DNA of 64,000 bases. It comes from Escherichia coli. Lineage in GTDB: Bacteria > Pseudomonadota > Gammaproteobacteria > Enterobacterales > Enterobacteriaceae. Within the stretch, counting starts at the first letter, position 1; every line of letters starts with the position of its first letter. The position numbers were made by a program, and so were the translations under genes. The stretch lies in assembly GCF_003334305.1 (NCBI RefSeq), contig NZ_QOWS01000013.1; one strand, given 5' to 3'. Positions 32,031 through 53,998 of the stretch are shown one piece after another. The notes beneath the pieces were generated by a model, which had not been told where the DNA came from, did not search any database, and worked only from the letters and a program-made list of their open reading frames with translations.

Positions 32031-33389
<1,359 letters not shown>

Positions 33390-33425
33390 TTAATTAACTG
33401 ATGATGAGCCTGGATTTCCGCTCTC

Positions 33426-33445
33426 ACTGAATTTTTATGCAAAAT
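33426..33445. promoter_or_regulatory. Putative ARG box (ArgR operator half of the argG control region)
   Basis: cTGAATttttATGCAaa fits the ARG-box consensus TGAAT-N4-ATTCA with one mismatch. Confidence 0.4.
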
Positions 33446-33559
33446 AAATGAGTTTTCATTTAATCATCTTTTATCGGAGACAGGAAGAGTTTAGTGTGTT
33501 TTTTGTAAAATAATGCGCTTAAGGGAGAGCAGGAGAAGGCAAAAGTATTCAACAAATGA

Positions 33560-33585
33560 AAGTGAATTGGATATTCATTCACGTG
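33560..33585. promoter_or_regulatory. Putative ARG box pair upstream of argG
   Basis: Palindromic gTGAATtggatATTCAttcac; on the argG strand it reads TGAATgaatATCCA, close to the ARG-box consensus. Confidence 0.4.
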
Positions 33586-33721
33586 ATTAGCAATAAACGT
33601 TGACAAAATGTGGCATGGATCACTATAATGCCTGCAGATTTTACGTCCCGTCTCGGTACACCAAATCCCAGCAGTATTTGCATCTTTTACCCAAAACGAG
33701 TAGAATTTGCCACGTTTCAGG

Positions 33722-33798
<77 letters not shown>

Positions 33799-33919
33799 CT
33801 TTCCCTTAGAGTCCTTTTTCAAATATACTGTGAAGACTTCGGCCTTCGTAGTGGGATTTGAAAAAATCCTTCTGGAAAGTGCTCCAGACCGCAGTTGCGG
33901 TTATAGGGTTCAGTTATAT

Positions 33920-33946
33920 AAAGCCCCGATTTATCGGGGTTTTTTG
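33920..33946 (+). terminator. Leader terminator/attenuator hairpin between metY and rimP
   Basis: Hairpin AGCCCCGATTTATCGGGGT followed by T6. Confidence 0.65.
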
Positions 33947-33967
33947 TTATCTGACTACAGAATAACT

Positions 33968-33987
33968 GGGCTTTAAGCCCTTTTTTT
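33968..33987 (+). terminator. Second hairpin with T tract immediately upstream of rimP
   Basis: GGGCTTTAAGCCC followed by T7; a tandem arrangement with the preceding hairpin. Confidence 0.45.
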
Positions 33988-52665: not shown

Positions 52666-53926
<1,261 letters not shown>

Positions 53927-53998
53927 TTATTCCCAAGAATTGATAGTGAGCGTAATATTCACGCGCTCAATTATCATAACTTATTCCTGGGGAATGCT

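What the first reader, a model, noticed from the sequence alone, without database searches (positions are those of the whole stretch)
33426..33585. Two ARG-box-like palindromes about 120 bp apart upstream of argG
TGAAT-N4-ATGCA at 33428-33441 and the palindromic GTGAATtggatATTCAttcac at 33562-33582 both resemble ArgR operators. The spacing would allow looping or tandem occupancy. Exact box boundaries are uncertain.
Basis: partly seen in the sequence, partly recalled or inferred. Interest (0 to 1): 0.25.

Follow-up and report, generated by a model that had tools for sequence, protein, structure and literature searches.

The report
Known ArgR operator of E. coli argG
This is the already characterised control region between the E. 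coli arginine gene argG and the initiator-tRNA gene metY: a textbook pair of adjacent arginine-repressor boxes on the argG promoter plus one lone distal box next to the metY promoter, so the finding is real but ordinary.

Summary
The window is E. coli. The finding lies in the 347-bp spacer between divergent argG (32031-33374, -) and metY tRNA-fMet (33722-33798, +). I built an ArgR matrix from nine other K-12 operators, leaving argG out. Its three best single-box scores in the whole 64 kb all fall in this spacer: 33426-33443 (19.7 bits), 33566-33583 (13.4) and 33447-33464 (13.2).

It is one half of a canonical tandem operator (18 + 3 + 18 bp, 33426-33464, 32.9 bits; 0 of 20,000 shuffles reach this). 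This operator overlaps the argG core promoter and start site. It is nearly invariant in Salmonella, Klebsiella, Citrobacter, Enterobacter and others.

Its TGAAT-N5-ATTCA register fails the matrix (-4.9 bits); the ARG-box register is 33566-33583. That box stands alone and is only modestly above chance (P about 0.02). In the genomes sampled it is intact only in E. coli. It is centred at -61.5 of the metY start and lies four helical turns from the documented CRP site (33606-33627).

ArgR and CRP control of both promoters was published by Krin et al. in 2003. Looping between the distal box and the operator is untested. Novelty: none.

The parts
33426..33443 (-). ARG box 1 (promoter-proximal box of the tandem ArgR operator); + strand ACTGAATTTTTATGCAAA
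   Evidence: 19.7 bits, the best single-box score in the 64-kb window. P = 0.0004 in shuffles. Conserved as TTTGCATAAAaATkCA in all Enterobacteriaceae examined. K-12 coordinates 3318568-3318585.
33447..33464 (-). It is separated from box 1 by the 3-bp spacer ATA (33444-33446).
   Evidence: 13.2 bits, rank 3 in the window. The tandem score for 33426-33464 is 32.9 bits against 15.7 for the next best in the window, and 0 of 20,000 shuffles reach it. The 21-bp register is kept in every relative. ATTAAATGAAAACTCA is nearly invariant.
33566..33583 (-). Distal single ARG box (box 3); + strand ATTGGATATTCATTCACG, reading CGTGAATGAATATCCAAT on the argG strand
   Evidence: 13.4 bits, rank 2 in the window. 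The K-12 allele scores 15.9 bits. P about 0.02 by shuffling. No tandem partner. Centre at -61.5 from the metY start and 42 bp (4.0 turns) from the CRP centre. Not conserved in 14 other genera; in Salmonella only the TGAAT half remains.
33562..33582 (.).
   Evidence: Inverted repeat I5. The N5 register scores -4.9 bits with the ArgR matrix.
33431..33459 (-). Predicted sigma-70 promoter of argG: ATGAAA (33459-33454), 17 bp, AAAAAT (33436-33431). It lies inside boxes 2 and 1.
   Evidence: Listed as the predicted argG promoter in the metY-argG spacer in Table 1 of PMC3946193. I located the hexamers in the sequence. This is a prediction, not a mapped start.
33449..33449 (-). argG transcription start implied by RegulonDB (CRP site centred at -167.5 of argG)
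   Evidence: Computed from the RegulonDB rows reproduced in supplementary file 5 of PMC3105977. With this start, box 2 spans -15 to +3 and box 1 spans +7 to +24. The candidate -35 region CTTCCTGT (33480-33487) is conserved.
33606..33627 (+). CRP (CAP) site AAATGTGGCATGGATCACTATA, between the -35 and -10 of the metY promoter
   Evidence: RegulonDB entry: metY repressor at -19.5, argG activator at -167.5. The K-12 sequence AAATGTGGCGTGGATCACTATA differs only at 33615. It is the only TGTGA-N6-TCACA match with at most 2 mismatches in the spacer. The pattern alone is not above chance in the window (19 found, 27 expected).
33600..33629 (+). metY promoter TTGACA-18-TATAAT, start at 33636
   Evidence: 12 of 12 consensus match. 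Same hexamers in PMC3946193. Start derived from CRP at -19.5. Conserved in relatives.
33502..33519 (.). Weak ARG-like 18-mer TTTGTAAAATAATGCGCT; probably not significant
   Evidence: 9.6 bits, rank 11 in the window. P = 0.15 in shuffles. In the alignment, Kluyvera's 17.1-bit box TTTGAATAAAAATGCATG falls mostly in this region.
32031..33374 (-). argG, argininosuccinate synthase (the regulated gene)
   Evidence: 447-aa ORF. Annotated argG in all E. coli genomes matched.
33722..33798 (+). metY, initiator tRNA-Met (CAU), first gene of the metY-rimP-nusA-infB operon
   Evidence: ARAGORN, Rfam RF00005, annotation.

Best explanation
The finding lies in the divergent argG-metY control region of Escherichia coli.

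(1) The functional ArgR operator of argG is the tandem pair of 18-bp ARG boxes at 33426-33443 and 33447-33464, separated by 3 bp. One arginine-loaded ArgR hexamer is expected to bind both boxes on one face of the helix. The boxes cover the core promoter and start site of argG, so binding would exclude RNA polymerase and shut off argG when arginine is plentiful. The sequence match, the geometry and the conservation are shown here. Physical binding and promoter exclusion are inferred from the established behaviour of E. coli ArgR operators.

(2) The distal palindrome contains a third, solitary ARG box in the register 33566-33583. It lies about 120-150 bp upstream of the argG start. It is centred at -61.5 of the metY promoter, on the same helical face as the CRP site that overlaps that promoter. 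Its most likely role is as a low-affinity auxiliary ArgR site through which arginine-ArgR modulates metY together with cAMP-CRP. It may also stabilise ArgR at the main operator. This second part is inference; it rests on the position of the box plus the published statement that ArgR down-regulates metY.
For: Identity: the region is 100% identical to E. coli chromosomes, with argG and tRNA-Met annotated.

Matrix: built from nine K-12 operators (argA, argECBH, argD, argF, argI, argR, carAB, artJ, artP) without argG. The three top single-box scores in 64 kb all fall in this 347-bp spacer.

Tandem operator: 32.9 bits against 15.7 for the runner-up; 0 of 20,000 shuffles reach it. The 18 + 3 + 18 architecture matches the published definition (PMC6245113; PMC3293853; PMC4381063).

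Promoter overlap: the predicted ATGAAA-17-AAAAAT promoter lies inside the boxes. The RegulonDB-derived start at 33449 lies in box 2.

Conservation: the operator block is almost invariant in 14 other genera of Enterobacteriaceae plus Salmonella and Klebsiella. The tandem pair recurs in Pectobacterium, Dickeya, Brenneria and Tolumonas.

Box 3: 13.4 bits (15.9 in K-12), P about 0.02. Its core is unchanged in the 8 E. coli alleles compared; the only polymorphisms are at box positions 2 and 18. It is centred at -61.5 of metY and 42 bp from the CRP centre.

Literature: the CRP site is documented in RegulonDB. [quoted passage not shown] 2003).
Against: I could not read any footprint or ChIP-exo coordinates for argG. 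Krin 2003 and the supplement of Cho 2015 are not held.

The two sources for the argG promoter disagree by about 25 bp. One is a predicted -10 at 33436-33431; the other is a RegulonDB-derived start at 33449. The exact overlap with -35, -10 and +1 is therefore uncertain.

Box 3 is only modestly above chance, has no partner box and is not conserved outside E. coli. In Salmonella a 1-bp difference destroys the right half-site. Single ARG boxes are generally weak binders. Its distance to the operator is not a whole number of helical turns at 10.5 bp per turn (11.3 and 13.3 turns).
Confidence: 0.85

Rival explanations
1. The proximal and distal ARG boxes cooperate by DNA looping. One ArgR hexamer, or two interacting hexamers, would bridge box 3 and the promoter operator across about 120-140 bp to strengthen repression of argG.
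For: An ArgR hexamer has six DNA-binding domains, and a tandem operator uses only four (PMC4381063). A three-box looped complex is the published model for B. subtilis AhrC at argC (PMC3293853). Box 3 is a good match in K-12 (15.9 bits). ArgR bends DNA by 70-90 degrees and CRP by at least 90 degrees (PMC4381063), which would ease a short loop.
Against: Box 3 to box 2 is 119 bp (11.33 turns) and box 3 to box 1 is 140 bp (13.33 turns) at 10.5 bp per turn, about 120 degrees out of phase. Box 3 is absent from all other genera, although they keep the operator intact, so repression of argG does not need it. Cho et al. attribute extended ArgR protection to non-specific contacts, not to extra motifs. 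No looping data were accessible.
Confidence: 0.2
2. The distal palindrome GTGAAT-N9-ATTCAC is not an ArgR site. It could be a chance resemblance in AT-rich promoter-upstream DNA, or the site of another dimeric factor acting on the metY promoter, for example a Fis-type upstream activator site of a tRNA promoter.
For: The 13.4-bit score has P about 0.02-0.04 in shuffles, so it is not overwhelming. 6-nt inverted repeats are common in the spacer (8 pairs). There is no conservation beyond E. coli. The position, about -60 to -70 from a strong tRNA promoter, is where upstream activator sites are typically found (my own knowledge, not tested).
Against: It is the second-best ARG-box score in 64 kb, and it lies 100 bp from a true ArgR operator. 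The K-12 allele scores higher, at 15.9 bits. ArgR is reported to regulate metY. By eye, the only G-N13-C register (33562-33576) has G-G at its centre, which fits the Fis consensus poorly; that comparison rests on my recollection of the motif and was not scored. A literature search for Fis at metY gave nothing relevant.
Confidence: 0.2

Closest known systems
The argG-metY divergent control region of E. coli K-12 (Krin, Laurent-Winter, Bertin, Danchin and Kolb 2003, J Bacteriol 185:3139; RegulonDB and EcoCyc entries)
   Same: It is the same locus. The window differs from K-12 MG1655 at only four bases of the spacer: 33567, 33583, 33615 and 33684. The CRP site, its positions (-19.5 for metY, -167.5 for argG) and the dual regulation by CRP and ArgR are already on record.
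   Different: Nothing of substance differs. Two flank positions of box 3 differ from K-12 and lower the matrix score from 15.9 to 13.4 bits. I could not read the paper itself. Whether it names exactly 33566-33583 as the third ARG box rests on my recollection, not on a tool result.
Canonical E. coli ArgR operators (argF, argI, carAB P2, argECBH, argA, argD): two 18-bp ARG boxes 3 bp apart, overlapping the promoter
   Same: Boxes 1 and 2 have the same 18 + 3 + 18 layout. Their tandem score of 32.9 bits lies within the 26.2-39.2 range of the nine training operators. They overlap the promoter.
   Different: argG carries an additional solitary box more than 100 bp upstream. The other nine control regions were not scanned for extra solitary boxes.
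Bacillus subtilis AhrC at argC: a two-box operator plus a single distant box, modelled as one hexamer contacting three boxes
   Same: The arrangement is two adjacent boxes plus one remote single box (PMC3293853).
   Different: In B. subtilis the paired boxes are 11 bp apart and the single box lies inside the coding region. Here the pair is 3 bp apart and the single box lies upstream, beside a divergent tRNA promoter. Looping has not been tested here.

Membership tests
E. coli ArgR operator (tandem ARG boxes) | Each box is an 18-bp imperfect palindrome of the TNTGAATWWWWATTCANW type | tested here: met
Matrix from nine non-argG operators. Box 1 scores 19.7, box 2 scores 13.2 and box 3 scores 13.4 bits; genuine training boxes score 8.1-21.6.
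E. coli ArgR operator (tandem ARG boxes) | Two boxes side by side, separated by 3 bp (2 bp in argR), 21 bp centre to centre | tested here: met
   33426-33443 and 33447-33464 with spacer ATA. The tandem score is 32.9 bits and 0 of 20,000 shuffles reach it. This is not met for the distal box 3, whose best partner sum is 8.4 bits; box 3 is a solitary box, not an operator of this type.
E. coli ArgR operator (tandem ARG boxes) | The operator overlaps the promoter of the regulated gene | tested here: met
   The predicted -35 ATGAAA and -10 AAAAAT lie inside boxes 2 and 1. The RegulonDB-derived start at 33449 lies inside box 2. The two promoter assignments differ, but both overlap the operator.
E. 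coli ArgR operator (tandem ARG boxes) | The regulated gene belongs to arginine metabolism and the genome encodes ArgR | tested here: met
   The downstream gene is argG, argininosuccinate synthase. The organism is E. coli, whose K-12 genome carries argR (b3237). argR itself is not in the window.
E. coli ArgR operator (tandem ARG boxes) | Arginine-dependent physical binding by ArgR (footprint, EMSA or ChIP) | not testable with these tools
   Cho et al. state that ChIP-exo covered all 15 previously characterised ArgR regions. Their site tables are not held. Krin 2003 is not held.
E. coli ArgR operator (tandem ARG boxes) | Conservation of the site in related genomes (phylogenetic footprint) | tested here: met
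   The tandem operator is nearly invariant in Citrobacter, Kluyvera, Pluralibacter, Enterobacter, Shimwellia, Salmonella, Klebsiella and others. Box 3 is not conserved in any of them.
CRP (CAP) binding site | 22-bp site with a TGTGA-N6-TCACA core, recorded as bound and functional | tested here: inconclusive
   The core TGTGGCATGGATCACT has 2 mismatches. This is not above chance as a pattern (19 found, 27 expected in the window). However, the site is the RegulonDB CRP site for metY and argG.

The most novel reading that the evidence does not exclude
The solitary distal ARG box may be a recent, Escherichia-specific gain. It would let a single ArgR hexamer anchored at the argG operator, or a second weakly bound hexamer, also contact DNA at -61.5 of the metY promoter on the same face as CRP. 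Arginine supply would then be wired directly to expression of initiator tRNA, NusA and IF2. The sister genera examined here lack that link at this position.
Probability: 0.2. Interest if true: 0.3.

Novelty: already known. Interest (0 to 1): 0.07.

Why it matters
It matters little as a discovery. [quoted passage not shown]

The value of this check is corrective. The distal site fits ArgR only in the register 33566-33583.

The one mildly interesting point is evolutionary. The tandem operator is fixed across Enterobacterales. The distal box, which sits in the metY promoter's upstream region, was intact only in E. coli among the genomes sampled. This suggests that the arginine-to-initiator-tRNA link may be lineage-specific.

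Tried and rejected
Literature access. I tried to read Krin et al. 2003 (PMC154083 and its DOI), Makarova et al. 2001, Maas 1994 and Charlier and Bervoets 2019; none is held. The supplementary tables of Cho et al. 2015 (ChIP-exo coordinates) are not held.

Mapped argG start. The start-site tables of Kim et al. 2012 gave no hit for argG, metY, b3172 or the coordinates.

Box sequences in the literature. A full-text search for the exact box sequences in both orientations found nothing. Searches for 'three ARG boxes' or 'third ARG box' with argG gave only Streptomyces and Bacillus material.

The TGAAT-N5-ATTCA register of the distal palindrome was rejected at -4.9 bits.

Fis as a rival. I checked by eye whether the distal palindrome could be a Fis site for the tRNA promoter. 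The only G-N13-C register has a G-G centre, so I judged it a poor fit. That rests on my memory of the motif. The literature search gave nothing.

Weak fourth site. The ARG-like 18-mer at 33502-33519 (9.6 bits) was set aside as compatible with chance (P = 0.15).

CRP pattern. The CRP-like pattern alone is not significant in the window. The site is accepted only because RegulonDB lists it.

Full report
WHERE WE ARE. The window around the finding is Escherichia coli chromosome. Bases 33300-33830 match 5,426 of 5,426 complete E. coli genomes at 95% identity or more, with argG and tRNA-Met annotated under the match. The ORF at 32031-33374 on the minus strand (447 aa) is argG. ARAGORN and Rfam place initiator tRNA-Met (metY) at 33722-33798 on the plus strand. 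rimP, nusA and infB follow. The finding therefore lies in the 347-bp spacer (33375-33721, 37% G+C) between two divergently transcribed units.

CHECKING THE OBSERVATION.
- Both strings are present at the stated coordinates.
- To score them objectively I fetched nine other ArgR-controlled regions of K-12 MG1655: argA, argE/argCBH, argD, argF, argI, argR, carAB, artJ and artP.
- I refined a symmetric 18-bp matrix on the best tandem site in each region, leaving argG out. The consensus that seeded the refinement (TNTGAATWWWWATTCANW) came from my memory. The sites recovered are the operators I recall for these genes, for example carAB TGTGAATTAATATGCAAA-taa-AGTGAGTGAATATTCTCT.
- Scanning the whole 64-kb window, the three best single-box scores all fall in the argG-metY spacer: 33426-33443 (19.7 bits), 33566-33583 (13.4 bits) and 33447-33464 (13.2 bits). 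The best score anywhere else is 12.0 bits.
- Boxes 33426-33443 and 33447-33464 are separated by exactly 3 bp (ATA). Their joint score is 32.9 bits against 15.7 for the next best tandem in the window. None of 20,000 dinucleotide-preserving shuffles of the spacer reaches 32.9; the maximum was 31.1.

THE DISTAL PALINDROME.
- GTGAAT-N9-ATTCAC at 33562-33582 is a true 6-nt inverted repeat. Eight such repeats occur in the spacer, so the repeat alone means little.
- The register 33566-33583 reads CGTGAATGAATATCCAAT on the argG strand, that is TGAAT-GAAT-ATCCA, and scores 13.4 bits. The chance of such a score in shuffles of the distal 256 bp is about 0.02.
- K-12 carries ACTGGATATTCATTCACA here, which scores 15.9 bits.
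- The box has no partner. The best adjacent 18-mer brings the tandem sum to only 8.4 bits.

PROMOTERS AND THE CRP SITE.
- The metY promoter is a perfect TTGACA-18-TATAAT at 33600-33629. It is listed identically in Table 1 of PMC3946193.
- RegulonDB rows reproduced in the supplement of PMC3105977 give a CRP site AAATGTGGCGTGGATCACTATA. It acts as a repressor of metY at -19.5 and as an activator of argG at -167.5.
- In the window this site is 33606-33627, with one central base different from K-12.
- From these positions the metY start is 33636 and the argG start is 33449.
- PMC3946193 instead lists a predicted argG promoter ATGAAA-17-AAAAAT, at 33459-33454 and 33436-33431. This would start transcription near 33424.
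- The two assignments differ by about 25 bp. In both, the tandem operator covers core promoter elements or the start site: box 2 at -15 to +3 and box 1 at +7 to +24 in one case, or boxes centred at -31.5 and -10.5 in the other.
- This is the arrangement described for E. coli ArgR operators: two 18-bp boxes 3 bp apart, overlapping the promoter, bound by one arginine-loaded hexamer on one face of the helix, with ArgR and RNA polymerase binding being mutually exclusive (PMC6245113; PMC3293853; PMC4381063).

COMPARATIVE EVIDENCE.
- I fetched the argG upstream region from one genome per species and scanned and aligned the Enterobacterales.
- The block AAAAGATGATTAAATGAAAACTCAyTTATTTTGCATAAA is almost invariant in the 14 other genera of Enterobacteriaceae that keep metY next to argG. 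The two boxes always start 21 bp apart.
- The same tandem pair recurs in Pectobacterium, Brenneria, Dickeya and Tolumonas, where metY is not adjacent.
- Salmonella and Klebsiella, reached through exact-protein look-ups, show the same pattern.
- The 33540-33600 region is unalignable in all these genera. None has a box scoring 8 bits or more at the equivalent place.
- In Salmonella the left half-site (GATGAATGAATA) survives, but a 1-bp difference destroys the right half, and the score falls below 7.5 bits.
- Within E. coli I compared the window with seven other alleles chosen across the identity range. Polymorphisms touch only position 2 of box 1 and positions 2 and 18 of box 3. The cores of all three boxes are unchanged. 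This is a small sample and weak evidence.

GEOMETRY.
- Boxes 1 and 2 are 21 bp apart, which is 2.0 helical turns.
- Box 3 lies 119 bp from box 2 and 140 bp from box 1. That is 11.3 and 13.3 turns at 10.5 bp per turn, so the boxes are not in phase.
- Box 3 is 42 bp (4.0 turns) from the centre of the CRP site and is centred at -61.5 of the metY start.
- The distal box is therefore better placed to act on the metY promoter, alongside CRP, than to serve as part of the argG operator.
- This agrees with the statement in PMC3017606, citing Krin et al. 2003, that metY is down-regulated by cAMP-CAP and also by ArgR.
- It also agrees with PMC3105977, which lists metY-argG among the divergent pairs controlled from a single CRP site.

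MOST LIKELY MECHANISM.
- Shown here: a statistically unambiguous, deeply conserved tandem ARG operator sits on the argG promoter. A solitary, E. coli-specific ARG-type box sits upstream of the metY promoter.
- Inferred from the established behaviour of the family: with arginine, hexameric ArgR occupies 33426-33464 and blocks RNA polymerase at argG.
- Inferred from position and from secondary citations: ArgR also occupies 33566-33583 weakly. This could be a second hexamer, or the two free subunits of the operator-bound hexamer. From there it would modulate metY together with CRP.
An analogous three-box model exists for B. subtilis AhrC at argC. But the phasing does not support it, and relatives with intact repression hardware do not need it.

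WHAT I COULD NOT DO. The primary paper and the ChIP-exo site tables are not held. The match between my box coordinates and published footprints is therefore not verified. That the literature counts three ARG boxes at argG is my recollection, not a tool result.

VERDICT.
- The feature is real but already known, so the interest is low.
- Corrections to the finding: add box 2 (33447-33464); move the distal box to 33566-33583; regard the distal box as solitary, lineage-specific and associated with the metY/CRP side of the spacer.

Noticed in passing
window 33677-33706 (+): A second promoter-like element, TTTGCA-18-TAGAAT (9 of 12), lies just upstream of the tRNA. Its start would fall about 9 nt before the mature 5' end at 33722. 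The stretch 33640-33721 is very strongly conserved across Enterobacteriaceae, more so than the spacer beyond the first metY promoter. It is probably the second metY promoter, or the tRNA leader and its processing region.
   Followed up: partly
window 33887-33987 (+): The Rfam rimP leader (RF01770) matches at 102.8 bits between metY and rimP. Terminator-like hairpins lie at 33920-33943 and 33968-33980. This is the known cis-regulatory leader of the rimP-nusA-infB operon.
   Followed up: no
L096 (E. coli VTB97074v, NZ_CP178675.1), equivalent to window ~33592: This strain carries an IS21-family element (istA/istB, ISSso4-like) inserted in the argG-metY spacer, between the distal ARG box and the metY -35. 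The insertion separates argG and its boxes from the CRP site and the metY promoter. It is a natural test of whether argG needs the distant CRP site.
   Followed up: partly
L014 (Kluyvera genomosp. 1), 135-118 bp upstream of the argG ATG: Kluyvera has a strong extra single ARG box, TTTGAATAAAAATGCATG (17.1 bits), 46 bp upstream of its tandem operator. In the alignment it falls mostly in the region of the weak E. coli site 33502-33519 (9.6 bits). Citrobacter has a 10.9-bit ARG-like 18-mer overlapping its metY -10 region. Auxiliary single boxes thus occur at different positions in different genera, while the tandem operator stays fixed.
   Followed up: partly
window 53897-53935 (+): The best ARG-like site outside the argG spacer is GCTGAATAATTATTCCCA (12.0 bits). 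With a weak neighbour 3 bp away its tandem score is 15.7 bits. By coordinate extrapolation from argG it falls in or near yraQ/yraR of K-12. It is probably chance.
   Followed up: partly
window 33480-33487 (argG strand CTTCCTGT) and 33466-33473 (AAAAGATG): Two short motifs just upstream of box 2 are conserved from E. coli to Klebsiella. They lie where the -35 of a promoter starting at 33449 would be, although they match TTGACA poorly. That would fit an activator-dependent argG promoter.
   Followed up: no
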